Shown in pieces: positions 12,403 to 50,689 of a stretch of 64,000 bases of DNA (position 1 is the stretch's first letter; the number at the start of each line of letters is the position of its first letter). Source of the DNA: a virus (lineage: Duplodnaviria; Caudoviricetes); the IMG/VR virus record IMGVR_UViG_3300028888_000049; one strand, given 5' to 3'. The notes under the pieces were generated by a model. That model saw nothing but the letters and a program-made list of their open reading frames with translations. It was not told the origin of the DNA and made no database searches. Made by a program: the position numbers and the translations under genes.

Positions 12403-12449
12403 GTGGCTAGGCTCGCTACCGAAAAGAGTACAACTCATACTCCTGCCAC
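12403..12449 (+). ncRNA. three-way-junction RNA element in the 5' leader of an endonuclease gene
   Basis: GTGGC-TA-GG(CTCGCTA)CC-GAAAA-GAGTA(CAACTCA)TACTC-CT-GCCAC; starts N6 after GTTCTA at 12391. Confidence 0.7.
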
Positions 12450-12487
12450 TCTCTTTTTAATTGAGTACTATATGGAGATATAGAATT

Positions 12488-13930
12488 ATGTCTAGTAAAT
12501 ATGATTGTATTTCAGATGAAATTTTAATAGAATTATATATTAACCAAAATTTACCAATATCAGTAGTAGCCAAAAAATTAAATGGCAGTAAAACACAAAT
12601 TAGACTCTTACTTATAAAAAGAGGTATTATAAAATCAAAAGAATTACGTCATCAACAATATACTAATACTTTAAATGAATTTTATGCAAATCGTACAGAA
12701 GAGCAATATCTTCATAAAAGTAGAGCTTGTAAAGATAGATGGAATAATTCTACAGAAGAAGAAAAAATAGAATGGATGAAGCCATTAAATAAAGTAAATG
12801 CTCATAGATCTCCTGAACATGAAGCTGCATTAATAAAATCATATAAAAATTTTTTAAAAAATGAATCAAAAGAAGATAGAGCTATACGTTTAGAAAATAT
12901 AAGAATTAGTACTACTAAAGCTATTAAAAATATGTCTCCTGAAACAAAAGCAAAAGCATCTGAAAAAAGAAAAAACACTTGGAATAATAAAACTGAAGAC
13001 GAAAAACGAAAAATTAAAGAAAAAAGACAAAAAACTATGTCTGCAAAATCATTAGAAGAAAAATCAAGTTATATAGAAAAAGGAAGACTTACAAAACTAA
13101 AAAACGGAACGCTTTTTACATCTAACGATGAAAATATATTTATAAACTATTTAAATGAATTAGGCTATAAAACTAGTAAATTTTATTTAAAAGAACATAT
13201 AAATACGACTACAAAATCCGAAATAGATATCTATATAGATGAACAAAAACTCGGGATTGAAATTAATGGAATATACTTTCATAGTATAAATGGAAAAAAT
13301 CATCGTGACAAATATTATCATTATAATAAAACAGAAGATGCAAGATTAAATAATTTCAGTTTAATTCACTTATGGGAAGATTGGATACATACAAATTTAG
13401 AAACATGTAAAAATATATTATTTAATAGACTAGATTTGTCTCATACAAAAACATTAGACACTCTTAATTATATACAAATAAATCAGAATGTATTTGAAGA
13501 TTTAAGAAAAAATTTTACACTAGATTATTCAAAAACTTATGCTAATATGTATAAAGTAATGAATAATACAGAATGTTATGCCATTCTAGGCTTGAATATT
13601 AAAGACAGAATCATAGAATTTAATTTATTCGAAAATCCTTTATACAAAATATCAAACTTAATACAAAGTACTATTAAATTCATAATAAATACTTTTAATC
13701 CAAATAAAATATATACATCATTAATGAGAGATATCTATATTGCTGATAATTATCTTAATAATAGCTTCGTCCTAGTAAATTATACAGAGCCAAATAGATT
13801 TTTAATAAAAGGCAATTACCAAAGATTTTATACAGATATCTCTGTTTCTGAATTAAAAAATCAAGAAAATACAAATAATATATTTGAATGTTATGGATCT
13901 GGATATATAAAATTAGAATATAAAGAATAG
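12488..13930 (+). CDS. homing-endonuclease-like protein (HTH, basic repeats, VSR/DUF559-like nuclease)
   Basis: EIDIYI...GIEINGIYFHS...HYNKT...LIHLWEDW; C-terminal CYGSG; ATG 12488 with GGAG RBS preferred over TTG 12461. Confidence 0.8.
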   Translation: MSSKYDCISDEILIELYINQNLPISVVAKKLNGSKTQIRLLLIKRGIIKSKELRHQQYTNTLNEFYANRTEEQYLHKSRACKDRWNNSTEEEKIEWMKPLNKVNAHRSPEHEAALIKSYKNFLKNESKEDRAIRLENIRISTTKAIKNMSPETKAKASEKRKNTWNNKTEDEKRKIKEKRQKTMSAKSLEEKSSYIEKGRLTKLKNGTLFTSNDENIFINYLNELGYKTSKFYLKEHINTTTKSEIDIYIDEQKLGIEINGIYFHSINGKNHRDKYYHYNKTEDARLNNFSLIHLWEDWIHTNLETCKNILFNRLDLSHTKTLDTLNYIQINQNVFEDLRKNFTLDYSKTYANMYKVMNNTECYAILGLNIKDRIIEFNLFENPLYKISNLIQSTIKFIINTFNPNKIYTSLMRDIYIADNYLNNSFVLVNYTEPNRFLIKGNYQRFYTDISVSELKNQENTNNIFECYGSGYIKLEYKE

Positions 13931-14013
13931 TTTTTATGACTTTTGACTAGTTCTATATAATCAGTTATATAATTTTATAAGTTTTATTTGCAAATCAAAC
14001 TAGGATTTTCTAA

Positions 14014-16818
14014 ATGTCAGATAAATTAAAGAAAGATCAAGCTTCAGGTAGATATTTTTTATATGAATCTACTGAATTTAATGTAAAACCAGTAATTTCT
14101 AAAGATTTAAAAGAATCTCTAAAGATTTCAAACGGAAAAGCCGGCACTCTTATCGTAAGAAACGTACCAGTCACAATTCTTAATAGAGAAAATATGAACG
14201 GGCGTATCTATACAACACAAGTTTTGGAAGAAGCTATTGCTGAATGTAAGCGTCTTAACAAATTTGCTGATAAGATGCTTTTATCGAAGCCGGATGAACA
14301 TCCGGAAGATTCGTTCATCCCTCCTTCAAAAGCATCACATGCTGTTATTAATTGTTATATTAAAAAGAATGTACCGATCGTAGTTGAAGGTAAAAAAGAA
14401 CGTCATGATGTTCTTTTCCAAGACTGGGAAATCTTTAATACAGCAAATGGTAAAGATATGCGTGCATTAGTAGAAGCTGGTGTATCATTTGGTGTTTCTA
14501 TTCGTGGTTTAGGCGATCTAGAAGGCAAATACGTAAAAAATTATAGTTTACTTGGAACTGATCTTGTAGGGAACCCAAGTTCTTCTACGTTTTCTGGTAT
14601 GCCCGTTGCTGAATCTGTTGTTGAATCTGTAAATGAAGATAAGTCTAAAAAGCCATTAAAAGAAGAGTTTGTTGTTTCTAGTTCTTCAACAACTGTTATG
14701 AAAGATATAGAACAAGCTTCTAAATTAGCTATGGAAATTGATGAACTTAATTATGGTACTGTTGTAAAGACATCTACAAAAGTTGATGATGAAACAGATC
14801 CTAAGACTGGTGTTTCTACAAGTTTAGTTACGTTTGAAGCTGAAACAGAAGATAAAGCAACTGATTTAGATACAGCTTTAATGTTAGCTAAAAGAGCTAT
14901 TTTAAATGGTAAAGTTGATATTGATTCTGTTACTATTGAAAACGTTAAAGAAGATCAACCGAAAGAATCTGCTGAAAATAATGACGCTTCTGTATTAAAA
15001 GAAGAAGAAAAAGATCCAATGTATTTAGCTTTGAAGAAAAGTAATTATTATCGTTTTAACACACCTGAAGAATATATGAAGTTTATAAATGATAATGTTA
15101 AATATCTTGATAATGGTTATTCATTACCAGAAGCTGAAGAAATTTTTGCTGAGTATACTGATGGTAAAATTAGTCCTGAATTAGCTTGTCATAAACTTGA
15201 AGGATTTGTTGGTAATATTATAAATAAAACTTTTAATAAAGATATTCCAGCATTAAATGAAGATGAGAACAATGATGATGCTGATGATACTGAGCGTTAT
15301 GGAGTATGTGGTTGGTGCGGTGAAAAATTGCCATTATCTGATTTAAAGAAAGAAAAAGATTTAGGATATGTATGCAATCATTGTGCTAAAGGTCTTGCAT
15401 CTCGTGAAGGTCCGCTTAATTTTGAAGATGAATATGTACCTGAATCTAAAATGAATAAAATGAGTACTGTAAAAGAAGCTAAAGAAGAAAAAGAAGAAGA
15501 TCCAAATACAGGTAAGAAATTTATCTTAAAAACTCCCCAAGGTTTTGTCGCTATGGATGGTAATGCATTGGTATTTAAACAAAATCCTAAAGAAGCATTA
15601 CATTTTATTGTTGGCAAAGAAGAAACGGGATTAGTACATCTTTCTAAAGTACAAGAAATTTTAGATACTATGGGTGTCTATGATGTAGAAAAGTACTATA
15701 AAAAAGATATCACAGATATTAGTGCTCCGGAAGAAGGTAACGGAATTGCTCCTAAGGGTGATTCTGAATTTGCTCCAAAAGAAGAATCTAGTGAAGAATT
15801 AACAGAAGATAATGGAAGCAATACAAGATTTTCTGCACAAGTTGCTTATGATAAAGGTAATGGTAATCTTGAGACAAATACTGTTCCTGTTTCTGGTGTT
15901 GAATTAGATAGTATTCTTGCCGAAGTAGGTAATTTATATGATATGAAATCGCAAAAAGCAGATGGTACTGTATCTATTAAAGTTACTGATACACAAACTG
16001 GACAAGTTTACCAATATAATAAACAAAATAATTCATTAGATCCTATACAAAGTGCTGATACAAATATGGCAGATGTTCAACAAGAACCACAACTCGATGC
16101 TCCTATTCAAGAAGCTAATGGTGAAATTGAACAAAAAGCTAATGAATTAAAAGTTGACTTAGATAAAGATCATTCAGTTACAAAGAAGTTTGATACTGTA
16201 GCTCAAGCTAGTATTGCAAAAGCTGGTATGGAACAAGGTAAATTGAATGGTGACGTCATGCTCAGTGAAGAAGATCAAAAATACGAAGATGCTCCTGATT
16301 ATGGTGAAGAAAATGTTGAATTTGGTTGGTATGCATTAAGTCCTAATACTGATGCTCAGGGTAGACCTGATTTAATTGGACCATTTGAAAGTGAAGAAGA
16401 AGCAAATAATGCTCTTGCTGAAGTAATTGATATGGTTGAAATCTTTGAAGTTACTCCAGATGGTATTCACCAAGGAAATGATATGGCATTAGCAGCAGAG
16501 TCTAATTTAGATGAAAAGATTTTCTCTAATCCTACGAACCCTTCTGATGAATTTGTATCTGTTCCATTAAAAGATAGTGATAATTTAAAATTTAGTTTAG
16601 ACAATATTGATTGGGATATTGATAGTGTTGTTAATAAACTTTATGATGGTGAATTTGTAGATATTGACAATTTACCAGATCATTTAGAAGTTGAATTAAC
16701 AGAAGATGAATTCAAAAATGTTGCTAATGTTGAAGAATTAATGAACGTTATCAAAAATAAAGCTTCAGAACAAATCGGTATTAAAATTAATAATGCCGTT
16801 TTAGATAGAATTGCTTAA
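14014..16818 (+). CDS. prohead protease (T4 gp21-like) with ~740 aa acidic extension
   Basis: NMNGRIY, HP, SH, GVSIRGLG, DLVGNPS; later CGWC..CNHC zinc ribbon. Confidence 0.88.
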   Translation: MSDKLKKDQASGRYFLYESTEFNVKPVISKDLKESLKISNGKAGTLIVRNVPVTILNRENMNGRIYTTQVLEEAIAECKRLNKFADKMLLSKPDEHPEDSFIPPSKASHAVINCYIKKNVPIVVEGKKERHDVLFQDWEIFNTANGKDMRALVEAGVSFGVSIRGLGDLEGKYVKNYSLLGTDLVGNPSSSTFSGMPVAESVVESVNEDKSKKPLKEEFVVSSSSTTVMKDIEQASKLAMEIDELNYGTVVKTSTKVDDETDPKTGVSTSLVTFEAETEDKATDLDTALMLAKRAILNGKVDIDSVTIENVKEDQPKESAENNDASVLKEEEKDPMYLALKKSNYYRFNTPEEYMKFINDNVKYLDNGYSLPEAEEIFAEYTDGKISPELACHKLEGFVGNIINKTFNKDIPALNEDENNDDADDTERYGVCGWCGEKLPLSDLKKEKDLGYVCNHCAKGLASREGPLNFEDEYVPESKMNKMSTVKEAKEEKEEDPNTGKKFILKTPQGFVAMDGNALVFKQNPKEALHFIVGKEETGLVHLSKVQEILDTMGVYDVEKYYKKDITDISAPEEGNGIAPKGDSEFAPKEESSEELTEDNGSNTRFSAQVAYDKGNGNLETNTVPVSGVELDSILAEVGNLYDMKSQKADGTVSIKVTDTQTGQVYQYNKQNNSLDPIQSADTNMADVQQEPQLDAPIQEANGEIEQKANELKVDLDKDHSVTKKFDTVAQASIAKAGMEQGKLNGDVMLSEEDQKYEDAPDYGEENVEFGWYALSPNTDAQGRPDLIGPFESEEEANNALAEVIDMVEIFEVTPDGIHQGNDMALAAESNLDEKIFSNPTNPSDEFVSVPLKDSDNLKFSLDNIDWDIDSVVNKLYDGEFVDIDNLPDHLEVELTEDEFKNVANVEELMNVIKNKASEQIGIKINNAVLDRIA

Positions 16819-16886
16819 AATAAACAGTTCTATATATCGTAAATAGTTTATACTAATTTTTATCAATATTTACTAGATTATATAAG

Positions 16887-17630
16887 GTGATTAGAAACAT
16901 GACAAAAGATGAAATCTTAAAAAGTATTAAAGCTTTGAAAGAATCTAATGCTTTGAACGTTAAAAAAGCAGAAGATACTTTGCAAAACATTGATGCAAAA
17001 GAAGTAAGTGATGCTAAAGTTGCTCAAGGTATCACAGGTTTGACATCAGAATTGCCGACGCAAAAAGATGTTGAAAAAGAAGTTAATAAAGACGAAGGAC
17101 CGATCGTTCCTGCTGATAAAGATGGCGTTTCAAAGAACGGTGGTGAGTCTGATAAACTTGAAGATGGTAAAGTAGAAGCAGAGCGTAAGAAAGAAGATAA
17201 TGGTATGAAAGACGTTATCAATGTTTCTGATCGCAAAGTTGAAGAAAATGCTGAATCTACAGCTGAATTGTTAAATCAATTGAAAGAAGCTGCAGCTCGT
17301 GAAGAAAAATATAAGAAAGAAGTTGCAACGATGAAAAAGCTGTGTGAAGAAGCTATCGAAATGCAAGGTAAAGCTTTAACAGAATTACATGCTAAGAAAA
17401 TGCATACAGTTTTTGAAGCTATTGTTGCTAAAGGTGAAGCTCTTGAAAAAGAAATGAACGAAGCCAAGATTAAAAATGAAAAATTGTATAAATCGGCTCA
17501 AAAATTGTACGAAGGTTCTACTCGTTTGAATAAAATCTTGTTAGAAGCTGTTAAGAAAGCTCAACCAGAAAAGAAGATGACACGTTATATGTCTGCTTCT
17601 GCTCGTGCTATGGCTGCTTTCAATAAGTAA
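16887..17630 (+). CDS. prohead scaffold/core protein candidate
   Basis: charged coiled-coil after the protease, own late promoter (16827), LKE motifs; start likely ATG 16899. Confidence 0.6.
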   Translation: MIRNMTKDEILKSIKALKESNALNVKKAEDTLQNIDAKEVSDAKVAQGITGLTSELPTQKDVEKEVNKDEGPIVPADKDGVSKNGGESDKLEDGKVEAERKKEDNGMKDVINVSDRKVEENAESTAELLNQLKEAAAREEKYKKEVATMKKLCEEAIEMQGKALTELHAKKMHTVFEAIVAKGEALEKEMNEAKIKNEKLYKSAQKLYEGSTRLNKILLEAVKKAQPEKKMTRYMSASARAMAAFNK

Positions 17631-17650
17631 TTTGCATTTTATAGTCATTA

Positions 17651-17685
17651 AGAGAGAGTTGGTATAAAAGCTGACTCTCTTTTTC
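17651..17685 (+). terminator. intrinsic terminator
   Basis: AGAGAGTTGG...CTGACTCTCT followed by a T run. Confidence 0.75.
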
Positions 17686-17703
17686 TATACAGTTCTAATA
17701 GTT

Positions 17704-18393
17704 ATGAATAGATTTATTGAAATACTATTAAATTTTATAAGTAAGCTTTTTAAATCTTCTAGCAACAGTATTGAGGAGAAACCTGTCATGAATAAATTCT
17801 TATCAGATCAAGATTTTAGAGACTTAGGTATTGAATTTGGTATAGAACCTGCTTGTATTAGAGCTATTTTTAAAGTAGAAGCAGGTGGAAAATCAGGTTT
17901 CTTACAAGCAGATCCTTCTAAACCAGTAACATTAGAAGAAGGACACATATTTTATAAGTACGGTAAACAAAAAGGACTAGATGTAGACAGTTTATGTGTT
18001 TCTTATCCTACAATATGCTATAAAAGTTGGACAAAACAATATTATAAGACTGGATTAGCTGAATATGCTAGATATGAATTAGCAGCAAGTGTCAATCAAG
18101 AAGTTGCTATGTTAGCTACAAGCTGGGGTTGTGGTCAAGTTATGGGATTTAATTATAAAGCTTGTGGATATAGTACTGTAAAAGCCTTTGTAAATGATAT
18201 GTATTTGTCTGAAAAGTTACAATTACGAGCTATGTGTATGTTTATAAAGTCTAATACTAAGATGTTTAATGCTTTAAAAACTAAAGACTGGAAAACTTTT
18301 GCCAGTTGTTATAATGGTCCTGGTTATGCGAGCAATAAATATGATAGTAAATTAGCTAAAGCTTATGAAGACTATTCAAAAATATACGTATAA
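17704..18393 (+). CDS. N-acetylmuramidase endolysin (DUF3380 family)
   Basis: VEAGG, EGHIF, SWGCGQVMGFNY, YNGPGY...YDSKL. Confidence 0.9.
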   Translation: MNRFIEILLNFISKLFKSSSNSIEEKPVMNKFLSDQDFRDLGIEFGIEPACIRAIFKVEAGGKSGFLQADPSKPVTLEEGHIFYKYGKQKGLDVDSLCVSYPTICYKSWTKQYYKTGLAEYARYELAASVNQEVAMLATSWGCGQVMGFNYKACGYSTVKAFVNDMYLSEKLQLRAMCMFIKSNTKMFNALKTKDWKTFASCYNGPGYASNKYDSKLAKAYEDYSKIYV

Positions 18394-18471
18394 CAGAAAA
18401 ATAATTTAAAAAATTCTAAAATTTTTGTAATTCTATAATATATAAGTAGTAATAAAAGTAATGGTGATAGT

Positions 18472-18930
18472 ATGGGTTATTTATTAAATGTCGACAATTT
18501 ACTTAATGGATATATTACAGATGAATTTAAAAGTAAAGTTTGTGATACTATTAGTTTTGCTATAGAACATTCTGCTAACCTTAATAAATCAAATGAAGAG
18601 ATAATTGGCGAAATACTTAATTATAATCTAGAATGTAAGTTACAAGAAGCTGCTAATGACTTATATCTAAAATTACCTGAGAAATATAGTTTAAAAAAGC
18701 ACAACTTTAACGAATGCGCTGATATTATTAGCGAATTTATAAGTCATTGTGCTATTTCTGAAACCTTTAAAAAAAGAAGTATTATATTTGAAATTGGTAA
18801 AAATAAAAGTAAATTTGATTTCATACAAACCATTCTTGAAATTATAGCAAAAGACGATGAAATGTTTAATTTCACATTAAAAACTAATAAAGAGCGCTCT
18901 GCAATTAAACTTACATTAACAGCTAAATAA
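18472..18930 (+). CDS. hypothetical protein
   Basis: 152 aa ORF, GGTGA RBS. Confidence 0.65.
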   Translation: MGYLLNVDNLLNGYITDEFKSKVCDTISFAIEHSANLNKSNEEIIGEILNYNLECKLQEAANDLYLKLPEKYSLKKHNFNECADIISEFISHCAISETFKKRSIIFEIGKNKSKFDFIQTILEIIAKDDEMFNFTLKTNKERSAIKLTLTAK

Positions 18931-19132
18931 AATAAGATGCTGGTAATGGAATAAATAATTGATCTAAACCTTCAGTATTACAAATTGTTCGAATTAAACC
19001 ACCTGGAATACGTGTATAAGTAACACTAAATCCATTCATGTTATATTTTCCATCAACAGATTCAAATAGTTTAAGCTTTTTAAGAACTTCTTCTTGTATT
19101 TCTGTATAAATTATATCCTTTTTCTTAAACAT
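18923..19132 (-). CDS. hypothetical protein
   Basis: 69 aa ORF. Confidence 0.6.
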   Translation of the reverse strand: MFKKKDIIYTEIQEEVLKKLKLFESVDGKYNMNGFSVTYTRIPGGLIRTICNTEGLDQLFIPLPASYFI

Positions 19133-19134
19133 AT

Positions 19135-19383: not shown

Positions 19384-19531
19384 ATATTACATTATTATAT
19401 ATAATAATAAACGTTATTTGTAAAGCAAAAAATATATTTTATTTTTAGTAGTAATGGAAAAATAGTTTAAAAGTTAGAAATTATATATAACTTCAAATAT
19501 ACATGATTAACGTACAACAAAGGATTTTTAT

Positions 19532-25129: not shown

Positions 25130-26389
25130 TCATCGTCTCTTTTTGTGTTTGAATTCTAATCTGCCTGGTTTATAGGTGTCATCTGGTTTTTCAAATCTAA
25201 AGACAGATTTTTCGCCGTTATTCCACCATTTTTTGCCTTTATTTTGATAACTTGTGATTTGTACAAAGCCTTCTGGAATTGGATCGTCTTTTTTGAGAAT
25301 TATGTTTTCTTTACCGTTTGTATAGATCGTTTTTCCGTACATTGGATTATTTTCGCCTTTAATCTTTTCAGAGGCAAATTTCTTCATTTCTTCTGTTTGT
25401 GCGTAGTTTTTAACACCATAATGTTCTAGATTATATTGTTCAATTTTCTGTAATTTTTGTTGTTTTTTATCTTCTGACAAAGGAAGAGCACCTTTTATCC
25501 AGCCTTCTGGTATAATGTCAGATTCACTAAAATAGCATTGAGTTATACCGTTATTGTATACTTTAGTATTTTTGTTTTTTGGAGATTTATGACGATTATC
25601 ATCTGATTTTACAGGTAATTGCCCTTTTATCCAATCATCACCAGGACATTCTTTTTGAAGTTTTTGTTCAATTCCATTATTCCACCAGTATTTACCATAA
25701 GCAGGATTATTTTCGCCTTTAAGTTCTTGTATAGTCATACCTTGTTTAAAGCCTTCTGGTATTTGATCATCCTTTTTTATTATAATGTTTGTAATTCCAT
25801 CAGTATACCAGTTTGTATTATACATTGGGTTATTTTCACCTTTTAATTTATCTCTAAATTCTTCAGATACAGGTAATTTTCCTAAATGCCATCCATCTCC
25901 GGGACATTCTGAACTTATACATTGTTCTATTCCATCAGTCCACCAATTACCACGACTTTTACAAGTACATCCTCTGTAATATCCTTCTGGTATTGTATCT
26001 TCTTCTTTTAAAAATAAATTATCTATCCCATTTGTATACCAATGTCTTCCTTCAGCAGGTTTTATTCCGTTATTATATTGAGAGAAATCTTGACTACCTC
26101 CTTGTGCTATATTATATCCTTTATCTTTTTCATTAGAGTGATACACTTCTGTTATAAAATACTTTTCTTGTTTTTCTATCTCATCTTTGAATTTTGTTTG
26201 TAATATAACAATATGCTGAATATTGTTCCAACCATATTTTTGTATTGCACTCCATAAATACGGCTGTGCTTTATAATTTACACCAGTATATCCCCAACGA
26301 ACTTTTGGCTTTTGTGATGTTATTCCTACATATACCTTATTATTCGGAAAGATATGTACGTATAAGCTGTAGATCTTCTCTTTTTTCAT
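25130..26389 (-). CDS. GIY-YIG homing endonuclease with seven WWNNG-type repeats
   Basis: SLYVH...VYVGIT...RW...E...GYN catalytic domain. Confidence 0.88.
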   Translation of the reverse strand: MKKEKIYSLYVHIFPNNKVYVGITSQKPKVRWGYTGVNYKAQPYLWSAIQKYGWNNIQHIVILQTKFKDEIEKQEKYFITEVYHSNEKDKGYNIAQGGSQDFSQYNNGIKPAEGRHWYTNGIDNLFLKEEDTIPEGYYRGCTCKSRGNWWTDGIEQCISSECPGDGWHLGKLPVSEEFRDKLKGENNPMYNTNWYTDGITNIIIKKDDQIPEGFKQGMTIQELKGENNPAYGKYWWNNGIEQKLQKECPGDDWIKGQLPVKSDDNRHKSPKNKNTKVYNNGITQCYFSESDIIPEGWIKGALPLSEDKKQQKLQKIEQYNLEHYGVKNYAQTEEMKKFASEKIKGENNPMYGKTIYTNGKENIILKKDDPIPEGFVQITSYQNKGKKWWNNGEKSVFRFEKPDDTYKPGRLEFKHKKRR

Positions 26390-42533: not shown

Positions 42534-42551
42534 TAAAAAATCTCCTTTTAT

Positions 42552-43262: not shown

Positions 43263-44071
43263 TCTTCACCTCCATGCTTTTTAAGCATACCTTTAACAAA
43301 ACCCTCCGGTATAGGATCACCATCTTTCACTAAAATTGTTACTATTCCATTATTATATTTTTTCTTACCTAATGCTGTTTTTAATGAAGATTTATCTTTA
43401 ACAAATCTTCCTTTAACGAAGCCTTCTGGAATTGGATCACCACACTTAACACGAATATTAATTATACCATTATTATAATATTCTGTATGTTTTGTAGCAT
43501 TACTTCTTTGTAAATATGCTTCTTCACTAAGTAACATACCGTTAATAAATCCTTCTGGACAAGTCTTAGCTTTTATTTGTATTACTCCATTATTATACCA
43601 TTTATAATCTTTATTAGCTATAGAGATTTTCGATAAGCTTTCAGTATTAAATTTTCTTCCAATTAAAGATTTTCTGATCTTTTCTATACGACTTTTTTCT
43701 AATTTTTTACCAGATAAAGACTTAGATATTTTGCGTTTTGTTTCTTCTGTTAATTTACCTCTATAATTACCACCATTTTGAATATTATAGCCTTTATCAA
43801 CTTCATTAGAATGGTATATTTCTGTTATATAATATCTTTCTAATCTTTCAGCCTCTTCTTTTGTTTCAACTTCATTTAAAATATCATGTTGAACATTTTT
43901 CCATCCATATTTTTGTATTGCACGCCAAACTAGTGGTTGTCCTAATATATTATTTTTAATACGATAATATCCACTTCCGTCTTTTCTCCATCTTCTTTCT
44001 GGTTTTTGACAGGTAATACCAATATAGACTTTATTATTTGGAAAAGTATGTTTATAAACTGTATATACCAT
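43259..44071 (-). CDS. GIY-YIG homing endonuclease with NUMOD3 and YNNG repeats
   Basis: TVYKH...VYIGIT...RW; TEETKRKIS. Confidence 0.9.
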   Translation of the reverse strand: MVYTVYKHTFPNNKVYIGITCQKPERRWRKDGSGYYRIKNNILGQPLVWRAIQKYGWKNVQHDILNEVETKEEAERLERYYITEIYHSNEVDKGYNIQNGGNYRGKLTEETKRKISKSLSGKKLEKSRIEKIRKSLIGRKFNTESLSKISIANKDYKWYNNGVIQIKAKTCPEGFINGMLLSEEAYLQRSNATKHTEYYNNGIINIRVKCGDPIPEGFVKGRFVKDKSSLKTALGKKKYNNGIVTILVKDGDPIPEGFVKGMLKKHGGEE

Positions 44072-44082
44072 TTTTCTTCCTT

Positions 44083-44691
44083 TTAATTAGTAAATGACCA
44101 TAACGAATATGAATTATCTGCATAATAGTCATAATTAAATTCTACTTCGATTTCTACAGCTTCAGAACTAGAAGGATCAATATCTGGTAGTTTAAGTGAG
44201 ATAGGATAAACCCCTCTGAGCCATAAAATTTTTTTGTCAAGCTTAGTAGATACATTGCCTCCTTCGTCGCTTCCTCCTATCACAACTTTAACTGTTGTTA
44301 CAAATGCATTTTGTGGAGTACGATTCCCTAACAATGGAGCATTAATTATATCTAACCAAGCCTGTAATATATTATGAACAGAGCCATTAAAGTCTTCGGT
44401 AATCTTTAATTTCCATGTACCAGATCTATCTTGCCAAGTTGGTCTTGTTCTTTTATGTCCAAAAAGTATAAGTTCATGAGTCTTCATTTTAGAAGATGGC
44501 AATGAATATGATGTACAGCGTAGACGTAATTCTTTTGATGTAGCTAATGTAGTATTACCAGATATACGACCTGCTACTTTTTGAGTAAGTTTAGATAATA
44601 AGAGAGCTGGATTCTCTTGTAAATAAAATTCAATTTGACTTTTTTTGAGCGGATCTTTTAACGCTCTTATTTCATCTAAAATTCTAAGCAT
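44083..44691 (-). CDS. tail-tube-fold protein (gp19-like paralog)
   Basis: LKDPL, LRCTSYSLP, W...ED, LRGVYP, FNYDY; clearly paralogous to 8610..9161. Confidence 0.75.
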   Translation of the reverse strand: MLRILDEIRALKDPLKKSQIEFYLQENPALLLSKLTQKVAGRISGNTTLATSKELRLRCTSYSLPSSKMKTHELILFGHKRTRPTWQDRSGTWKLKITEDFNGSVHNILQAWLDIINAPLLGNRTPQNAFVTTVKVVIGGSDEGGNVSTKLDKKILWLRGVYPISLKLPDIDPSSSEAVEIEVEFNYDYYADNSYSLWSFTN

Positions 44692-44786
44692 ATAAATAAC
44701 TTTTTGTATAATGGAATATAAGTACTAGTTATTTATATAGAACTTATTTAAAGATATTGATTTTCTTAGGTGTGAATTGAGTGTTT

Positions 44787-46013
44787 TTATTTAATGTATT
44801 TGTGTAACGTATCCATTAAGTTTATACCATTTTTTATAGCTTCTGGTATAGTTTTATTATAATTCATTAAATTTATTTTATGATCGTATATATAATTGTT
44901 ATTTTCATGGACATTATCACCCATTGCACTTATAATTAAATCAGCCTTGATAAAATCTATAGGATCATCTAATTTTGGACTAGAATGTGTTGAAGTATCA
45001 GTGAGTCTCATAACACCTCTATTTATATAAACAGTTCTATTACGTGCATTTGGATCACCGACAATTTCTACAATAGAAGAAGTAGGTAATATTCTTACCT
45101 TTTTCCTATATAATTCTAATAGTGTATCTTCTGAAATTTTCATATCACAAATATGTCTTCTTACAATCATATAAACATTACAATCTGATTCTAATATTAC
45201 CTCTTTTGCAGCTAAAGCACAGTCTGCAGCTATCTCTCCTCCACCGACTATTAGTATATTATGCATAATAGATCTAATTGAAGTCTTTAAACGTTCTAAA
45301 TAATCTTTATTTAAAAACTGATCATATGTTAATATATTTTTATTTCCTACAACGTCTACCTTTTTAGGATTACTTTTCATTGTACTATTAATTACATAAT
45401 CTTCATTTGCAAAATCACTAAAATTTAACTTCTTTTCAGAATTAAGATATACTGCAACTCTATCTGTATCTAATATACGATAAACTTCTTTTCTAAAAAT
45501 ATCTAAATTAAATCTGAAATCTGGTATTAAATTCATTTTACCGCCTAGCTTATCAGAGCTTTCATATATATTAACTTTATATCCTAACATTAAAGCTCTC
45601 CAAGCAGCAGATAGTCCACAAACACCTCCGCCTATAATATTTATTGTTTCAGATCTTAATGGAATATTCTCATAACCATTATAACTAAATGTATTATCTT
45701 TTAAGATTTTAGCTTGTATAGCTCTTATATCAATACTACCACTACCGAGCATTTCTTTATTTTGTATGCAACTTCTCATACAAAAAGTTTTAGGGCATAA
45801 ATACCCACAGGTTTCAGCAAATGGATTAATACTATATAAATAATTAACAGCTTCTTCTATTTTACCGTCTTTATATAAAGCAATAAATCTTTTAGGCTCT
45901 AATCCTACAATACAATCTTCACTACAACGATCTACTTTACAATTAAAGCATCTATTAACTTCATTTTTTATATAGCTATCATTAATATCAATCATTTCTA
46001 ATTCCATATGCAA
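44787..46013 (-). CDS. GltD/PreT-like Fe-S flavoprotein oxidoreductase
   Basis: RCFNC...C...C, NPF..TCGYLCP...C...C, IIGGGVCGLSAA, IPDFR, IVGGGEIAADCA. Confidence 0.88.
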   Translation of the reverse strand: MHMELEMIDINDSYIKNEVNRCFNCKVDRCSEDCIVGLEPKRFIALYKDGKIEEAVNYLYSINPFAETCGYLCPKTFCMRSCIQNKEMLGSGSIDIRAIQAKILKDNTFSYNGYENIPLRSETINIIGGGVCGLSAAWRALMLGYKVNIYESSDKLGGKMNLIPDFRFNLDIFRKEVYRILDTDRVAVYLNSEKKLNFSDFANEDYVINSTMKSNPKKVDVVGNKNILTYDQFLNKDYLERLKTSIRSIMHNILIVGGGEIAADCALAAKEVILESDCNVYMIVRRHICDMKISEDTLLELYRKKVRILPTSSIVEIVGDPNARNRTVYINRGVMRLTDTSTHSSPKLDDPIDFIKADLIISAMGDNVHENNNYIYDHKINLMNYNKTIPEAIKNGINLMDTLHKYIK

Positions 46014-46404
46014 TATTTAACAGATCTTCATTTTTCCTAACAAATTTAAAAACATCATAAACTCTTTTTATTTTAACTAAGCGAGATTCTAATTCTTTCT
46101 TTATTTTACTTTTATTATAATATAGATAAACATTAGTATCATCAGTTATATTTAAACGCATTAATGCAAAACTAAATGAATATCTTTTAACATAATACTT
46201 TTTAATATCACAAATGAGTGTACTAATATAAATTGATTCATCATCTGATTCTTCTAATACAGTATTCTTATCTAAACCAAGTTTTTCTGATTTATCAAAT
46301 ACTCTATAACCGACGTCAGATGACTCTTGATGAAAATCTTTTTCAAACACTATAAATTTTTCACCAGTTTCTTTATGTGTTAATAATACATACCTATTGT
46401 TCAT
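45988..46404 (-). CDS. hypothetical protein
   Basis: 138 aa ORF in operon. Confidence 0.65.
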   Translation of the reverse strand: MNNRYVLLTHKETGEKFIVFEKDFHQESSDVGYRVFDKSEKLGLDKNTVLEESDDESIYISTLICDIKKYYVKRYSFSFALMRLNITDDTNVYLYYNKSKIKKELESRLVKIKRVYDVFKFVRKNEDLLNIAYGIRND

Positions 46405-46654
46405 ATCTCTTAATCTCTAATAACAGCTTACAAACTAAACAAATAGCATATAAAGAATATCCAATAAATAAAAGACCTAATATCCCAAATATTATACTAC
46501 CATAAATAAAATCTACTACTGTTAAAATAGATAACACGATCAACAAAATCATATTTAAACACAACTGAAATGTTAAATTAGATTTATATTCGCCAAAATC
46601 TCTTTTCATATATTTTATTCTCCTTTTATCAAATTTTATATATTCATAACACAT
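46394..46654 (-). CDS. small two-TM membrane protein
   Basis: two hydrophobic segments; likely start MKRDFG at 46609 after AAGGAG. Confidence 0.65.
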   Translation of the reverse strand: MCYEYIKFDKRRIKYMKRDFGEYKSNLTFQLCLNMILLIVLSILTVVDFIYGSIIFGILGLLFIGYSLYAICLVCKLLLEIKRYEQ

Positions 46655-46731
46655 CTTATCACGATTGTAAAGTCAAAAATAAGCAGTTCTAATATATAAA
46701 TAATCCCTATTAAAATAAAAAGAGTATATCT

Positions 46732-47697
46732 ATGCCTACAATAAACTTAAATATTCCAACAAATAGTCGTTTTCATTCAAGCCTTAATGAAGTTGATCTA
46801 GCAGTAAGAGAAGCACTTATACATTGTATGAGAACAGCCGATCCAAGAGATAAATCTGGAAAACAAGATAACATTACTAAAAATGAAAATGAATTTTTAT
46901 GGGATCATTCAAGAATATTCTTAACTGATGATTTAAGTACTAAAGAAATAATGGATACATTCCTCTTACGTAAAAAAATAAATAATGAAGAAAATACAGA
47001 CTTTTCATTCCCAGTACTCGCATTTAAAGAAGAATCAATAGAAACAGTATTCTGGGGAACAGGTAATAGATACGCTCAAAATTATATAGAAATACCATCA
47101 GAAACAAAAGACTTTGAAATAGGTGATGAAGTAATAATAAAAAGATACGGTCCATACTATGGTCAAACCGCTACAATACAAAACATAACAACATCCCTAA
47201 CAGAACAATTATATAACTTATCAATAAATGGTAAAATAATTCAAGAAAGACTACCTAACCTAAAATACAAAAATACAGACTTTCACCAACAAGACTTAAA
47301 ACTAGCAGGACCAAAACTAGCTAAAGTCTATAAAGCTAAAGGCATAAAATCTACATACGAATGCGCAATACTAGCAGATAATAAAGATGAACTGCAATAT
47401 ATTAGAGACAGATACTTGTTGAAAATAGCTGACTCTAAAATATGGTTCATCTATTATTCTCCAACTATCAAGTCTAATAACCAAATATATACAGTCTTCG
47501 AAATACCAAATATAGACAAATATCCATCTGGTGAAGATAGACTAAATGGAGAAGGATGGATTTACGGATCAGCTTTCAAAATTAACGTCTGGGCAGCTCT
47601 TACTGATGAACCTATTGATGCTAACTATATCGAGCAAATCAGACTTACTATCGAAGACGAAGCTAAGAGTTTCTATAATAGAAATATTATAAGCTAG
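46732..47697 (+). CDS. tail terminator/neck protein candidate (gp15-like) with KOW-like insert
   Basis: late promoter 46686; FSFPVLAF...Y..AIL pattern; FEIGDEVII...GPYYGQTATI. Confidence 0.45.
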   Translation: MPTINLNIPTNSRFHSSLNEVDLAVREALIHCMRTADPRDKSGKQDNITKNENEFLWDHSRIFLTDDLSTKEIMDTFLLRKKINNEENTDFSFPVLAFKEESIETVFWGTGNRYAQNYIEIPSETKDFEIGDEVIIKRYGPYYGQTATIQNITTSLTEQLYNLSINGKIIQERLPNLKYKNTDFHQQDLKLAGPKLAKVYKAKGIKSTYECAILADNKDELQYIRDRYLLKIADSKIWFIYYSPTIKSNNQIYTVFEIPNIDKYPSGEDRLNGEGWIYGSAFKINVWAALTDEPIDANYIEQIRLTIEDEAKSFYNRNIIS

Positions 47698-49141
47698 GTA
47701 AAGTTTCATACCACTTCATAAATTCGTCAATTGTAAAAAATTCCATCCAATTTAGATTATTCTTTTTGGCAGTTTCTCTTTTCAAAGGATCGCGAACCGT
47801 CCATGTATTAATAGCGGATATATACCAATTTTCATAATTTTCTAATAGAACACTTTTTTCTTTCCACTTTGAAACAAGTTGTTGATGTTCTAATAAATTC
47901 TCATTATATGGACCTAAAATATTTTTACCATCTTTTCCATGAACAGGATAACCTTGATATTCAATATATAAATCCAATTCATTAATGTAAAAATCACAAT
48001 AAAAAGGATAAACTTTAGATTTATATTGTCTTTCTACAGTATATCCTTTATTAATTAGCAATTCATACATTTTATCCTCTTCTATAGAACTAAATATACC
48101 ATTATGCTGTTTTTTACTTTCTAACATCTTTTTTATGACTTCAGGATTTTGAGCTGGACTCTTATAACTTGTTTTTTCTTCATATGTATTTTGTCTTTTT
48201 ATTTTAATATTAATAAGTTCTTCTGGTGTTTTATCTTGCCATGTTTGTTTTACACTTTGTACCCATTCTTTTGTCTGTGAATTATATGGAACACCGCTAC
48301 GTTCTATCATTGTTTGTTTAGATTTTTCTTTTATTTCTTCTATTTGAAAAGCATTTATAACACCGTGCTTATCTAACCATTCTTTATTTTTTTGCTTATA
48401 ATCATCAGAATTTAAATAATATTCTGTACCCCAATGTTCTTTATTAGTCTGCTTAATCTTTTTTTGAACTTCTGGTAAACCACCTGGATTTGTTACTCCA
48501 TATGTATTCATACAACTTTCTTTTCTTTTAGCTTCTCTTAATTCTATCGGTTTAATAATATTAAATTTTAATGCATATTTTTTAAACTCACCTATACTCA
48601 TATAAAAATGAGTAGCAGTTTCATACCTTGTATGATTTTGATTGATATAATATTCTATAACTTCTTCTTTTGTAGGCTTTTTAAATGTTTTTTCTAATTT
48701 ATATTTATCTACATATACTTCCAGTGTAGATTTATTCATATCTTTTAGAAATGCTATTACTCTTAATGGTATTTTATTATCTACATATAAAGTTCTTAAT
48801 TCTTCTTCACTTATATAAGTATTATACTTTAATTTTATATAATCTTTTATAAAACCATATTCTTTTAATTTTTTATATATTGTACTCTGATCATAATATA
48901 ACAAATGTGCTATTTCTAATATAGATTTATTTTGAATTACATATAATTGTTCTAAATTATCTTTATTTAAAGAAAGTATCTTTTTCTTAAGTTCAATAGG
49001 CTTTTTAAAACCATAATCTTTTAATAGCCTATCGATAACATCAAACTCAGTATTTGTAAATCTTGCTAATTCTTCTTGTGTAAAATTATATAATATGAAT
49101 AACTCATATATATTTTCTTTAGATAGTTCTTTAGAAAGCAT
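47687..49141 (-). CDS. homing-endonuclease-like protein (tandem HTH, YGV repeats, VSR/DUF559-like nuclease)
   Basis: repeated L..LY...N....IA HTH units; CDFY...YIEYQG..HG. Confidence 0.82.
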   Translation of the reverse strand: MLSKELSKENIYELFILYNFTQEELARFTNTEFDVIDRLLKDYGFKKPIELKKKILSLNKDNLEQLYVIQNKSILEIAHLLYYDQSTIYKKLKEYGFIKDYIKLKYNTYISEEELRTLYVDNKIPLRVIAFLKDMNKSTLEVYVDKYKLEKTFKKPTKEEVIEYYINQNHTRYETATHFYMSIGEFKKYALKFNIIKPIELREAKRKESCMNTYGVTNPGGLPEVQKKIKQTNKEHWGTEYYLNSDDYKQKNKEWLDKHGVINAFQIEEIKEKSKQTMIERSGVPYNSQTKEWVQSVKQTWQDKTPEELINIKIKRQNTYEEKTSYKSPAQNPEVIKKMLESKKQHNGIFSSIEEDKMYELLINKGYTVERQYKSKVYPFYCDFYINELDLYIEYQGYPVHGKDGKNILGPYNENLLEHQQLVSKWKEKSVLLENYENWYISAINTWTVRDPLKRETAKKNNLNWMEFFTIDEFMKWYETLPSL

Positions 49142-49216
49142 TTTATAATCTCCTTTTTAAGTACTCTATTTATTAGAACCCTATGGATTACAAAATACTT
49201 ACAAAAAATTAAAAAA

Positions 49217-50014
49217 TTATGACCAACCTAAGTGTCCATGTAAAACAGAATCATTCTTCAGTGAGTCAGTTTCTTCTTTTAACTTTTCTAATCTTCTTTG
49301 TAATGCGTCAGTAGAAATCGTAAAATCGGCTTCTAACTGTAAAGATTCACGAGCTGTGATAATTGATTCAATAAAGCGGTAAGAAACGAACTTACACAAC
49401 CAATCAAACTTACTCATATCTACATATTCTGGAGTAGTAAAACCAAGAGCACTAATAATAGAAATTTGACCTAAACCGAATGGTGAGATCAAATGAATTC
49501 TATTCTTAGTGCGATCAATCCAATACTCAGCTTGACCAGTACTAAGTTCGTCATAGCTGTTTTGAACTAGTTGTGATGTGATATCGACATTAGTACTAGA
49601 ACTACCATATACAAATCCAAACATCTGAGTCGACCATACCGAAGGATTCTGCAAATTAGAAAACGGAGGTCTCTGAACAGATAAGAGACCTAGCACATAG
49701 GCGTTTTCTAATTGCTCCTGCGGTATTGCCGGCTGTCCTCCAGTTAGTAGGTCTTTAAAGTCTATATACATGCCGTTATCGTCTTTCATTGGAGCTGTAC
49801 CTGGCCATACTACGTTTTCTCCTGAAGTTGAAGAGTTGTAGGTAGTGATGTATACAGATTTCATAGGGAAGCATCTGTAGTAGTCTAGAGTACCTAAGGT
49901 GATAGCTTGTTCGCGTATATTACGTTCTAAGTTAGAAATTGTTCCGTTAGGATTACCTAGATCAAGAGAGAGAGCTTGTTCTAGAAGAGGTCTTATTTTA
50001 GGAAAGTTTGCCAT
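49217..50014 (-). CDS. neck/head-completion protein candidate (gp13-like)
   Basis: LDYY..FP near the N-terminus, W..K...E...E.L helical C-terminus; size and context. Confidence 0.5.
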   Translation of the reverse strand: MANFPKIRPLLEQALSLDLGNPNGTISNLERNIREQAITLGTLDYYRCFPMKSVYITTYNSSTSGENVVWPGTAPMKDDNGMYIDFKDLLTGGQPAIPQEQLENAYVLGLLSVQRPPFSNLQNPSVWSTQMFGFVYGSSSTNVDITSQLVQNSYDELSTGQAEYWIDRTKNRIHLISPFGLGQISIISALGFTTPEYVDMSKFDWLCKFVSYRFIESIITARESLQLEADFTISTDALQRRLEKLKEETDSLKNDSVLHGHLGWS

Positions 50015-50049
50015 GGATTTATTTCCTTATTTTCTTGGTTATTTTTTTA

Positions 50050-50499
50050 TTAGTAACCGTATTTGTCTTCTTTATAATCTTCGTAAGTCCAAATTTTTTC
50101 AGGATCATCATCCCAGATATTCATATCTTTTGTGAATACCTTTACTACTTTTGCTTGTTTATTTGGATTTTGTTGTAAGTATTCATTAGCAATAGCTTGT
50201 GCTTCTTCTTCCGTATCCCATAGATTCTTAATTTCTGGTTCATAGTCTGTTGTTAAATTATTATTAACTTCTAGTGTACGGTTTCCATCTTCTGTATTTA
50301 AGTCTATATATTCTTTACCAAACTTTGGAACTATCTCTACGAATACTGCATACTTTGTTGCTGCTGGTTCTTGTGCATCTAACCAATCTTCGTATGCACC
50401 ATCTTCTTCATAATCAGGATTTGTAGTTCTCCAATAATCGTAAGATCTTGGCAACTCTTCTTTTAATATGCTTTCTACAATTTCTCTTATTTTAGACAT
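50050..50499 (-). CDS. acidic putative internal virion protein
   Basis: N-terminal IREIVESILKEE motif; late promoter 50557-62. Confidence 0.55.
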   Translation of the reverse strand: MSKIREIVESILKEELPRSYDYWRTTNPDYEEDGAYEDWLDAQEPAATKYAVFVEIVPKFGKEYIDLNTEDGNRTLEVNNNLTTDYEPEIKNLWDTEEEAQAIANEYLQQNPNKQAKVVKVFTKDMNIWDDDPEKIWTYEDYKEDKYGY

Positions 50500-50635
50500 G
50501 ATGATTTAATTCCCTTTATAAATGTTTGTAATGGATAATAGCTAATATTTAATATTTAGAACTTAAAAAGTAAAGCAAAATATAATGAGATCAACATATC
50601 TACTATAAAATCAATAATATAAAAATTAGATTTAT

Positions 50636-50689
50636 GAGGCTAGTTTTAAAGTATAGGTTTAAAACAGGATCCGTCGATCTTTTCGCCTC
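50636..50689 (-). ncRNA. three-way-junction RNA, circular permutation of 12403..12449
   Basis: GAGGC-GAAAA-GATC(GACG)GATC-CT-GTTTTAAA(CCTATAC)TTTAAAAC-TA-GCCTC; starts N6 after GTTCTA at 50701-50696. Confidence 0.7.

What the first reader, a model, noticed from the sequence alone, without database searches (positions are those of the whole stretch)
12403..50689. Circularly permuted three-way-junction RNA present twice, each at a late +1 and next to a VSR-like nuclease domain
Seen: element A (12403-12449,+) GTGGC-TA-GG..CC-GAAAA-GAGTA..TACTC-CT-GCCAC and element B (50689-50636,-) GAGGC-GAAAA-GATC..GATC-CT-GTTTTAAA..TTTAAAAC-TA-GCCTC. Helix sequences differ, but the three junction strands and their closing bases are identical (C-GAAAA-G, C-CT-G, C-TA-G) in the same cyclic order; only the open helix differs. 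Both start exactly 6 nt after GTTCTA. A leads an endonuclease gene; B follows the gene ending in a degenerate nuclease domain, and a second promoter lies between B and the next gene, so B may be a free RNA. Established: natural circular permutation with an invariant core is typical of autonomous functional RNAs (hammerhead, twister); this core is not a hammerhead. Inference: an RNA module I cannot assign to a named family (ribozyme, protein-binding site or decoy, or 5'-end protector) tied to these nucleases.
Basis: partly seen in the sequence, partly recalled or inferred. Interest (0 to 1): 0.88.

Follow-up and report, generated by a model that had tools for sequence, protein, structure and literature searches.

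The report
Permuted leader RNAs of homing-endonuclease genes
The two look-alike RNA folds are real: one belongs to a catalogued RNA family of unknown function (Rfam int-alpA), and the other to a widespread uncatalogued sister family with the same three-way core turned by one arm. Both head selfish DNA-cutting-enzyme genes in phages and most likely limit how much enzyme is made.

Summary
A (12403-12449,+) and B (50689-50636,-) have identical junction strands (UA, GAAAA, CU) and G-C closings in the same cyclic order. Both start 6 nt after a GTTCTA promoter-like motif. A strict descriptor hit only A and B in the window, nothing in 300 shuffles, and only family members in about 2.7 Mb of other phage DNA.

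A is a member of Rfam RF02996 (int-alpA; 34.8 bits against a cut-off of 35.8), so the family is named but its function is unknown.

B belongs to a sister class absent from Rfam 15. A strict pattern found 115 stretches in IMG/VR. Helices P1 and P3 covary strongly, and the P3 loop is complementary to the ribosome-binding site, 6 nt or more in 80 of 88 copies.

Both classes sit at the 5' end of cassettes for homing endonucleases of many unrelated folds, not Vsr-like ones in particular. In close relatives B is followed by such a gene; in this window the gene is missing, so B is an orphan leader rather than a shown free RNA.

The likely role is damping translation through a loop-RBS pseudoknot (inferred). 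This scan has reported int-alpA-type endonuclease leaders before on other DNA. What is new here is the permutation link between the two classes.

The parts
12391..12402 (+). GTTCTA promoter-like motif plus TATAAT spacer, directly before element A
   Evidence: GTTCTA followed by A/T-rich sequence recurs upstream of about 18 genes in the window, and in relatives L004, L005, L007 and L055.
12403..12449 (+). Element A, an int-alpA-type three-way junction. P1 is 12403-07 with 12445-49, UA 12408-09, first hairpin 12410-20, GAAAA 12421-25, second hairpin 12426-42 (loop 12431-37), CU 12443-44.
   Evidence: Rfam RF02996 at 34.8 bits, E 4e-6 locally and 0.002 over the whole window. Descriptor result.
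12450..12466 (+). U-rich tract (12450-61) and the site TGAGT (12462-66), which is complementary to ACTCA in the second hairpin loop (pseudoknot partner)
   Evidence: Lies within the Rfam match 12400-12466. Loop-site pairing is a family feature: mean 5.5 nt against 3.64 +/- 0.17 in controls.
12474..13930 (+). Shine-Dalgarno GGAG (12474-77) and the homing-endonuclease gene (ATG at 12488), Hef-like/Vsr-like
   Evidence: phrog_3339 and phrog_559; tblastn hits to F-LimX and Hef-like endonucleases; distant homologues carry Pfam Vsr, MTES_1575 and DUF7487.
50690..50701 (-). GTTCTA (50701-50696) plus the spacer TTATTT, directly before element B
   Evidence: The same promoter and spacing occur in L002 and L053, and GTTCTA plus 6 nt also in L055.
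50636..50689 (-). Element B, the permuted three-way junction. P1 is 50689-85 with 50640-36, GAAAA 50684-80, P2 50679-68, CU 50667-66, P3 50665-43 (loop 50657-51), UA 50642-41.
   Evidence: Folds as stated, z -2.8. Copies upstream of homologous genes in L002, L053, L055, L056-60 and L061, plus an independent copy before an unrelated HNH gene in L135/L136. Large sister family in IMG/VR. No Rfam match.
50603..50607 (-). Degenerate remnant (TATAG, 5 of 7) of the site that pairs with the P3 loop. The 95%-identical homology with L053 and L002 ends at 50604.
   Evidence: L053 has the perfect 7-nt site GTATAGG followed by the endonuclease gene.
50557..50562 (-). Second GTTCTA motif, serving the next gene (50050-50499)
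50708..51316 (-). C-terminal ~200-aa domain of the 497-aa gene upstream of B. It is conserved in at least 25 proteins with different N-termini and has a Vsr-like/PD-(D/E)XK-like predicted fold.
   Evidence: AlphaFold model pLDDT 76.9. VIA-align Z 6.6 to Vsr (1cw0) and 6.5 to I-Bth0305I. No Pfam or PDB sequence hit.

Best explanation
A and B are 5'-terminal structured leaders of mobile homing-endonuclease gene cassettes (own promoter, folded leader, nuclease gene). A is an int-alpA-class RNA (Rfam RF02996), laid out as P1 - UA - small hairpin - GAAAA - hairpin - CU - P1'. B belongs to an uncatalogued sister class with the same 15-nt core (three G-C closing pairs plus the strands GAAAA, CU and UA). 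In B the core is turned by one arm: P1 - GAAAA - small hairpin - CU - hairpin - UA - P1'. In both classes the loop of the hairpin just before the 3' strand of P1 pairs with a downstream site. In the B class, and in many A-class copies, that site is the Shine-Dalgarno region. In the window's own A it lies 7 nt upstream of it. The resulting pseudoknot most likely restricts ribosome access and keeps nuclease output low. The junction core acts as a rigid scaffold or recognition module. The copy of B in this window has lost its endonuclease gene and is an orphan leader. Shown: family membership, covariation, loop-site complementarity, gene association. Inferred: translational repression, the transcription start, and loss of the gene rather than its never having been there.
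For: - A matches RF02996 with the same junction strands as the Rfam consensus. It is the only sub-threshold Rfam match in the whole window.
- An A-type pattern found 71 IMG/VR loci, against a rough own estimate of about 2 by chance. Several of these pass Rfam's gathering score.
- In 52 distinct A-type copies, loop-to-downstream-site complementarity averages 5.5 nt, against 3.64 +/- 0.17 in controls.
- B-type copies sit upstream of homologues of one endonuclease at 98-44% identity. The junction is invariant and P1, P2 and P3 covary. Loop and site change together: CCTGTAT/ATACAGG, CCTATAC/GTATAGG, TTGCGT/ACGCAA, TCGCAT/ATGCGA, TCACGT/ACGTGA and CCTTGAT/ATCAAGG.
- A B-type pattern found 115 IMG/VR stretches, against about 6 by the same rough estimate. 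In 88 distinct copies the site is 6 nt or more in 80, with mean 5.98 against 3.76 +/- 0.11 in controls. The site ends a median of 8 nt before the ATG.
- On 45 B-type sequences, 96.4% of cells are paired, 10 of 15 pairs show double changes, and the covariation score is 0.58 against 0.20 when shuffled (0 of 500) and about 0.08 when slid.
- Downstream genes are nucleases of many folds.
- A -10-like box lies 4-10 nt before P1 in 25 of 49 A-type and 45 of 85 B-type copies, against 7 and 8 in control windows.
- Precedent: RBS-sequestering structures limit T4 homing endonucleases (PMC2988022).
Against:
- In the window's own A the loop-complementary site (12462-66) lies 7 nt upstream of GGAG rather than on it, and is only 5 nt long.
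- A's fold is not the minimum-energy fold of the isolated sequence.
- A constitutive pseudoknot does not by itself explain why 15 core nucleotides are invariant across unrelated phages and hosts.
- About 9 of 20 A-type copies examined precede replication or terminase genes rather than nucleases.
Confidence: 0.7

Rival explanations
1. The conserved core is a sensor: an aptamer for a metabolite, or a binding site for a shared host factor such as the ribosome, an RNase or a chaperone. The loop-RBS pseudoknot would be its expression platform, so nuclease translation is switched rather than merely damped.
For: Fifteen core nucleotides are invariant across two permuted classes, many hosts and many unrelated downstream proteins. 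That pattern argues for recognition of the RNA itself by something common to all. Natural circular permutation is typical of self-contained folds. A third rotation was not found, so the core is not freely interchangeable.
Against: No ligand or factor is indicated by gene context, since the downstream genes are selfish nucleases rather than a metabolic regulon. The core is small (9 unpaired nucleotides). No alternative switch structure was demonstrated.
Confidence: 0.13
2. The element is a stand-alone small RNA or a transcription attenuator. Transcription starts at P1 and mostly stops at the U-rich tract after P1. This would give a ~55-nt RNA that acts in trans or simply limits read-through into the nuclease gene.
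For: Rfam types int-alpA as an sRNA, and its consensus carries a U-run after P1. A has TCTCTTTTT right after P1. The 8 nt after P1 contain on average 3.6-3.8 T. B in this window has no gene of its own.
Against: The simple terminator scan calls neither element. P1 is only 5 bp and closes a multiloop. In rumen B-type copies the T-run starts about 11 nt after P1, and L135 has none. The covarying pairing partner lies beyond the U-tract, so the functional RNA extends to the RBS.
Confidence: 0.11
3. A and B resemble each other by chance: unrelated hairpin clusters parsed to look alike.
For: A's parse needs a 2-bp helix, and the isolated sequence prefers another fold.
Against: No descriptor hits in 300 shuffles. 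No false positives in about 2.7 Mb of phage DNA. Each element belongs to a large covarying family with the same core.
Confidence: 0.02
4. The element is a self-cleaving ribozyme or a processing signal that generates a defined RNA end.
For: The core is permuted and invariant, as in hammerhead and twister ribozymes (established knowledge).
Against: No ribozyme family matches, even at E up to 1. The hammerhead core CUGANGA is absent. A -10-like box 4-10 nt before P1 already places the 5' end at the base of P1 in about half the copies.
Confidence: 0.02
5. The conserved sequence acts at the DNA level, as an operator, a recombination site or a homing site of the cassettes.
For: T4 I-TevI represses its own promoter through a DNA operator (PMC2988022). 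The elements abut promoters.
Against: The helices vary by compensatory changes that keep RNA pairing, including G-U pairs. The loop-RBS complementarity is strand-specific. The downstream nucleases are unrelated, so no common DNA-binding protein exists.
Confidence: 0.02

Closest known systems
int-alpA RNA motif (Rfam RF02996; Weinberg et al. 2017, PMC5737381)
   Same: A has the same architecture and the same junction strands as the Rfam consensus: P1-UA-hairpin-GAAAA-hairpin-CU-P1', then a U-run and a partner for the second loop. B shares the 15-nt core and even the small-hairpin sequence: GGGTAGCTCCC and GGGTCGCTCCC occur in both classes.
   Different: A scores 1 bit under the gathering cut-off. 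B has the junction strands rotated by one arm relative to P1 and is invisible to the Rfam model. Rfam lists the motif as an sRNA of unknown function. The papers I could search give no link to homing endonucleases, no RBS pseudoknot and no permuted form.
RBS-sequestering hairpins of T-even homing endonuclease genes (I-TevI, I-TevII, I-TevIII, segB, Aeh1 mobE; PMC2988022)
   Same: An RNA structure in the leader of a selfish nuclease gene pairs with the ribosome-binding site and limits translation, next to a phage late-type promoter.
   Different: In T4 a simple hairpin forms only on read-through transcripts, and the late promoter lies inside it. Here the promoter precedes the whole structure. 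The mask is a long-range loop-to-RBS pseudoknot held by a conserved three-way junction. The module is portable across unrelated nuclease families.
Naturally circularly permuted RNAs (hammerhead types I-III, twister P1/P3/P5 types; established knowledge)
   Same: One invariant core occurs with different helices left open.
   Different: No catalytic core or ribozyme match here. Only two of the three rotations were found. The decorated arms (small hairpin, RBS-pairing hairpin) keep their linear order while the junction strands shift, so this is not a simple cut-and-rejoin of one ancestor.
SD-sequestering pseudoknot riboswitches (preQ1-II, SAM-II/V; established knowledge)
   Same: A loop or junction pairs with the Shine-Dalgarno region to form a pseudoknot that controls initiation.
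   Different: No ligand is known or indicated. The gene context is selfish nucleases rather than a metabolic pathway.

Membership tests
Rfam RF02996 int-alpA (element A) | Score at or above the curated gathering cut-off (35.8 bits) | tested here: inconclusive
   34.8 bits, with E 4e-6 on 131 nt and 0.002 over the whole window against all 4227 families. This is 1 bit short. A is AT-rich, whereas the Rfam consensus is GC-rich.
Rfam RF02996 int-alpA (element A) | Three-way junction with strands UA, GAAAA and CU in that linear order, and G-C closing pairs | tested here: met
   The strands align to the invariant consensus columns.
Rfam RF02996 int-alpA (element A) | U-rich tract after P1 and a downstream partner for the second hairpin loop | tested here: met
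   TCTCTTTTT at 12450-58. The loop's ACTCA pairs with TGAGT at 12462-66, inside the Rfam match. The same feature is seen in 52 relatives.
Rfam RF02996 int-alpA (element B) | Linear order UA, GAAAA, CU relative to the open helix; a match to the covariance model | tested here: not met
   The order in B is GAAAA, CU, UA. There is no RF02996 match at E up to 1 in the window or at E up to 10 on a canonical B-type copy. B is a sister class, not a member.
B-type permuted leader class (defined here) | P1-GAAAA-small hairpin-CU-hairpin-UA-P1', with covarying P1 and P3 and the P3 loop complementary to the RBS | tested here: met
   The fold is met in window B. The RBS partner is only 5 of 7 nt there because the gene is missing. 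The class is supported.
T4-type RBS-sequestering homing-endonuclease hairpin | A hairpin that contains the SD, with a late promoter inside it so that late transcripts escape | tested here: not met
   The promoter motif lies wholly upstream of both elements. Masking is by a distant loop, not a local hairpin arm.
Hammerhead and other small self-cleaving ribozymes | Conserved catalytic core (for example CUGANGA ... GAAA ... UH) or a match to the Rfam model | tested here: not met
   The junction strands are only UA, GAAAA and CU. No ribozyme family matched.
Intrinsic terminator | G+C-rich stem followed directly by a T-run | tested here: inconclusive
   The simple scan finds none, but it cannot model a branched stem. 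A has a T-run right after P1; B has one only after about 11 nt.
Vsr-like / PD-(D/E)XK nuclease fold (C-terminal domain of the gene upstream of B) | Structural similarity to Vsr or I-Bth0305I | tested here: inconclusive
   VIA-align Z 6.6 (1cw0, 116 aligned, rmsd 4.1), 6.5 (3r3p_B, 89 aligned, rmsd 3.5) and 6.2 (1vsr, 106 aligned, rmsd 4.0). The rows below are mostly other PD-(D/E)XK nucleases. Foldseek E is 0.2 or worse, and there is no sequence-profile hit.

The most novel reading that the evidence does not exclude
The 15-nt three-way core shared by int-alpA and its permuted sister class is an autonomous recognition module: an aptamer for a small molecule, or a docking site for a universal host factor. 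Selfish nuclease cassettes would carry it to time or gate their own translation. That would make this a new riboswitch-like class which exists naturally in two circular permutations.
Probability: 0.13. Interest if true: 0.85.

Novelty: new variant of a known kind. Interest (0 to 1): 0.6.

Why it matters
int-alpA has been an orphan RNA motif since 2017. This window holds one int-alpA copy and one copy of a sister class that is not in Rfam. Under comparably strict patterns the sister class is at least as common in IMG/VR (115 against 71 stretches). The two share one invariant junction core rotated by one arm.

That link joins two sets of phage leader RNAs into a single structural family. It ties the family to homing-endonuclease cassettes of many nuclease folds. 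It also gives a directly testable mechanism, a covarying loop-RBS pseudoknot. A natural circular permutation in a cis-regulatory RNA that is not a ribozyme is unusual, and it suggests that the core is a self-contained fold worth solving. In practice, the two models would help annotate selfish cassettes and their promoters in uncultured phage genomes.

Tried and rejected
- **Own genome:** not held. The window's own proteins are not on record for context look-up.
- **Nucleotide searches:** both loci against GenBank phages gave nothing.
- **Close relatives of the flanking genes:** single-protein searches of viral contigs found none.
- **Exact B 25-mer:** absent from viral contigs.
- **Related jumbo phages:** thirteen contigs that carry the conserved C-terminal domain gene lack B. 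Five related genomes have no excess of 'GTTCTA...CGAAAAG' and no RF02996 match; in that run the 14 control genomes also had no match, so this negative is weak. The B model R1 finds no further copy in three related genomes and parts of others.
- **Distant homologues of A's endonuclease:** L062, L063 and the G001 copy have unrelated upstream regions.
- **Third rotation (P1-CU-hairpin-UA-hairpin-GAAAA-P1'):** 0 hits with the common small hairpin and none in 2.7 Mb by the descriptor.
- **Self-complementary tetramers in the small hairpin:** only weakly enriched, 18 of 25 against 13 +/- 2.4.
- **L137:** a chance match to the metagenome pattern.
- **Literature:** no paper found on int-alpA function, its link to homing endonucleases, or a permuted form. 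The supplement of Weinberg 2017 is not held.
Full report
**What is in the window**

The window is part of a 263-kb uncultured, AT-rich (about 29% G+C) jumbo myovirus-like phage. Its nearest GenBank relatives are the Lak Prevotella phages, and those are remote. Related IMG/VR genomes share 40-65% protein identity.

The motif GTTCTA followed by A/T-rich sequence lies just upstream of about 18 genes in the window, on the coding strand. It also occurs in relatives, so it is a plausible phage promoter element. A and B each start 6 nt after it.

**Is the resemblance more than chance?**

I wrote a descriptor for all three circular permutations. It required the junction strands GAAAA, CU and UA, G-C closing pairs, hairpins of at least 2 bp and an open helix of at least 4 bp.
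- It found only A and B in the window.
- It found nothing in 300 dinucleotide-preserving shuffles.
- In about 2.7 Mb of other phage DNA fetched later it hit only genuine family members.

Folded alone, B adopts the stated fold (z -2.8). A's minimum-energy fold is different and not significant (z -1.45). A's 2-bp helix is therefore credible only through comparison with its family.

**Element A is an int-alpA RNA**

A pattern taken from A (CTAGG N5-9 CCGAAAAGAG N9-17 CTCCTG) matched 71 IMG/VR stretches, against a rough own estimate of about 2 by chance. Several of these pass the gathering score of Rfam RF02996, int-alpA.

A itself scores 34.8 bits against a cut-off of 35.8. It is the only match with E of 1 or less to any of the 4227 Rfam families in the whole window. 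The Rfam consensus is P1 - UA - hairpin - GAAAA - hairpin - CU - P1', then a U-run and a partner for the second loop.

In 52 distinct copies, the second hairpin loop is complementary to a site 5-20 nt after P1. The mean is 5.5 nt, against 3.64 +/- 0.17 in cross-controls. Nineteen of 42 leaders carry two or more such sites, the last ending a median of 8 nt before the ATG. In A the pairing is ACTCA with TGAGT (12462-66), 7 nt upstream of the GGAG.

**Element B belongs to a permuted sister class**

B recurs, nearly identical, in two close relatives, L002 and L053. There it is followed 46 nt later by a homing-endonuclease gene (phrog_314). Homologues of that gene at 61-44% identity (L055, L056-60, L061) carry the same leader.
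- The junction strands are invariant.
- P1 covaries (GAGGC/GCCTC, GAGAC/GTCTC, GAGAT/GTCTC).
- P2 covaries (GATC..GATC or GGG..CCC).
- P3 covaries.

An independent copy precedes an unrelated HNH/NUMOD3 gene in JGI metagenomes (L135/136).

In every gene-linked copy the P3 loop is a perfect 6-7-nt complement of the sequence at the Shine-Dalgarno site, and the two change together: CCTGTAT/ATACAGG, CCTATAC/GTATAGG, TTGCGT/ACGCAA, TCGCAT/ATGCGA, TCACGT/ACGTGA and CCTTGAT/ATCAAGG. For a shuffled tail the chance of 6 nt or more is about 0.02 per sequence.

A pattern for this layout (GAAAA + GGGTNGCNCCC + (C)TG + N16-32 + CTAG) matched 115 IMG/VR stretches, against about 6 by the same rough estimate. 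Among 88 distinct copies:
- there are 35 P1 variants, 42 P3 stems and 48 loops;
- the loop-site complement is 6 nt or more in 80, with a mean of 5.98 against 3.76 +/- 0.11 in controls;
- there is usually a single site, ending 7-8 nt before the ATG.

On a gap-free alignment of 45 sequences, 96.4% of cells pair and 10 of 15 pairs show changes on both sides. The covariation score is 0.58, against 0.20 when shuffled (0 of 500) and about 0.08 when the partners are slid.

Neither window B nor a canonical member matches any Rfam 15 family.

**How the two classes relate**

The 15 core nucleotides (three G-C closings plus UA, GAAAA and CU) are identical and in the same cyclic order.

The arms, however, keep their linear order. 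The small hairpin comes first and the RBS-pairing hairpin second in both classes. The small hairpin can even be identical in sequence: GGGTAGCTCCC and GGGTCGCTCCC occur in both. Window B's GATCGACGGATC resembles the Rfam consensus GccCgAcguGggC.

So the junction strands are rotated by one step relative to the decorated arms. A simple duplicate-and-truncate permutation would not predict this. The third rotation was not found.

**Gene context**

Genes behind A-type copies:
- 11 of 20 sampled have nuclease or homing-endonuclease domains: GIY-YIG, HNH, HNH_3, endonuclease VII, DUF559, MTES_1575 or NUMOD.
- Five of the rest had replication, ParB or terminase domains, and the others had no informative hit.

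Genes behind B-type copies: of 10 sampled, 6 had nuclease-domain hits (endonuclease VII, HNH_3, GIY-YIG, LAGLIDADG) and 4 had no Pfam hit. The L135 copy precedes an HNH gene.

A's own gene is a Hef-like/Vsr-like homing endonuclease. The module is therefore a portable leader of selfish nuclease cassettes and is not specific to Vsr-like enzymes.

A -10-like hexamer ends 4-10 nt before P1 in about half of the copies of both classes. In a control window the figure is about 10-15%.

**Status of B in this window**

The window is 95% identical to L053 and L002 from inside the upstream gene, through the promoter, B and the linker, as far as 50604. Homology then stops, exactly where the pairing site and the endonuclease gene begin in the relatives. 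The window keeps only 5 of 7 nt of the site, and a second GTTCTA motif serves the next gene. B here is an orphan leader.

**The upstream gene's C-terminal domain**

The last ~200 aa of the upstream gene are conserved in at least 25 proteins with different N-termini. The predicted fold gives Z 6.2-6.6 to Vsr and to the I-Bth0305I catalytic domain, with other PD-(D/E)XK nucleases below. It has no bearing on the RNA.

**Mechanism**

The best-supported reading is a translation-damping leader. The three-way junction presents a hairpin loop that closes a pseudoknot on the ribosome-binding region, which keeps a potentially harmful nuclease at a low level. This is analogous in effect to the RBS-sequestering hairpins of T4 I-TevI, I-TevII, I-TevIII, segB and Aeh1 mobE (PMC2988022), but differently built.

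The pairing is shown by covariation; the repression is inferred. The invariance of the core across unrelated hosts and proteins is not explained by this reading alone. It keeps open a sensor or host-factor reading (about 13%) and an sRNA/attenuator reading (about 11%).

**Earlier notes of this scan**

Several earlier reports describe int-alpA or 'not-in-Rfam' three-way-junction leaders before homing-endonuclease genes on other DNA: e1-3544836, e1-3035393, e1-2001750, e1-5411217, e1-5344468, e1-5409343, e1-5390125 and e1-5659537. None that I could retrieve mentions the permutation link.

I re-derived family membership, the loop-RBS pairing and the gene association here from primary searches.

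Noticed in passing
window 17692-17706 (+): The ATG of gene 17704-18393 starts exactly 6 nt after a GTTCTA motif, the same spacing as the first base of A and B. If transcription starts there, this gene would be made from a leaderless mRNA.
   Followed up: no
window 50708-51316 (-); alignment A1: A ~200-aa C-terminal domain (invariant D, E, K, H and W positions) is fused to different N-terminal parts in at least 25 proteins of related gut phages. The predicted fold resembles Vsr/I-Bth0305I (Z 6.2-6.6), but there is no Pfam or PDB sequence match.
   Followed up: partly
L064, L093, L110, L115 and other A-type loci: Many int-alpA-type leaders carry two copies of the loop-complementary site, one soon after P1 and one on the Shine-Dalgarno region or start (19 of 42 leaders). 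This suggests a decoy/RBS competition. B-type leaders almost always have a single site at the RBS.
   Followed up: partly
L055 2424-2434; L135; L074, L097, L101 and others: The small hairpin is identical in sequence (GGGTAGCTCCC or GGGTCGCTCCC) in A-type and B-type RNAs, although it sits between different junction strands (UA/GAAAA against GAAAA/CU). A simple circular permutation does not predict this.
   Followed up: partly
window 58348-59250 (-), 47687-49141 (-), 25130-26389 (-): There are three more homing-endonuclease-like genes in the window: one with similarity to the L002 endonuclease, one with DUF7487 and one with NUMOD3. None has an A- or B-type leader.
   Followed up: partly
L139 6319-6377 (+); L150 5181-5242 (-): Contigs with B-type leaders also carry the Rfam DUF2815 RNA (RF03084), another orphan phage motif, directly before a gene start.
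   Followed up: no
L053 about 1600-1989: The 3' end of this ENA contig turns abruptly GC-rich and repetitive. It is probably a chimeric assembly, so the right-hand border of the endonuclease cassette could not be defined.
   Followed up: no
L056-L060, L061 upstream of the B-type leader: In these relatives the leader is not 6 nt after GTTCTA: ATTCTA lies 16 nt before P1 in one case and 1 nt before it in the other. The fixed spacing seen in the window is not universal within the B class.
   Followed up: no
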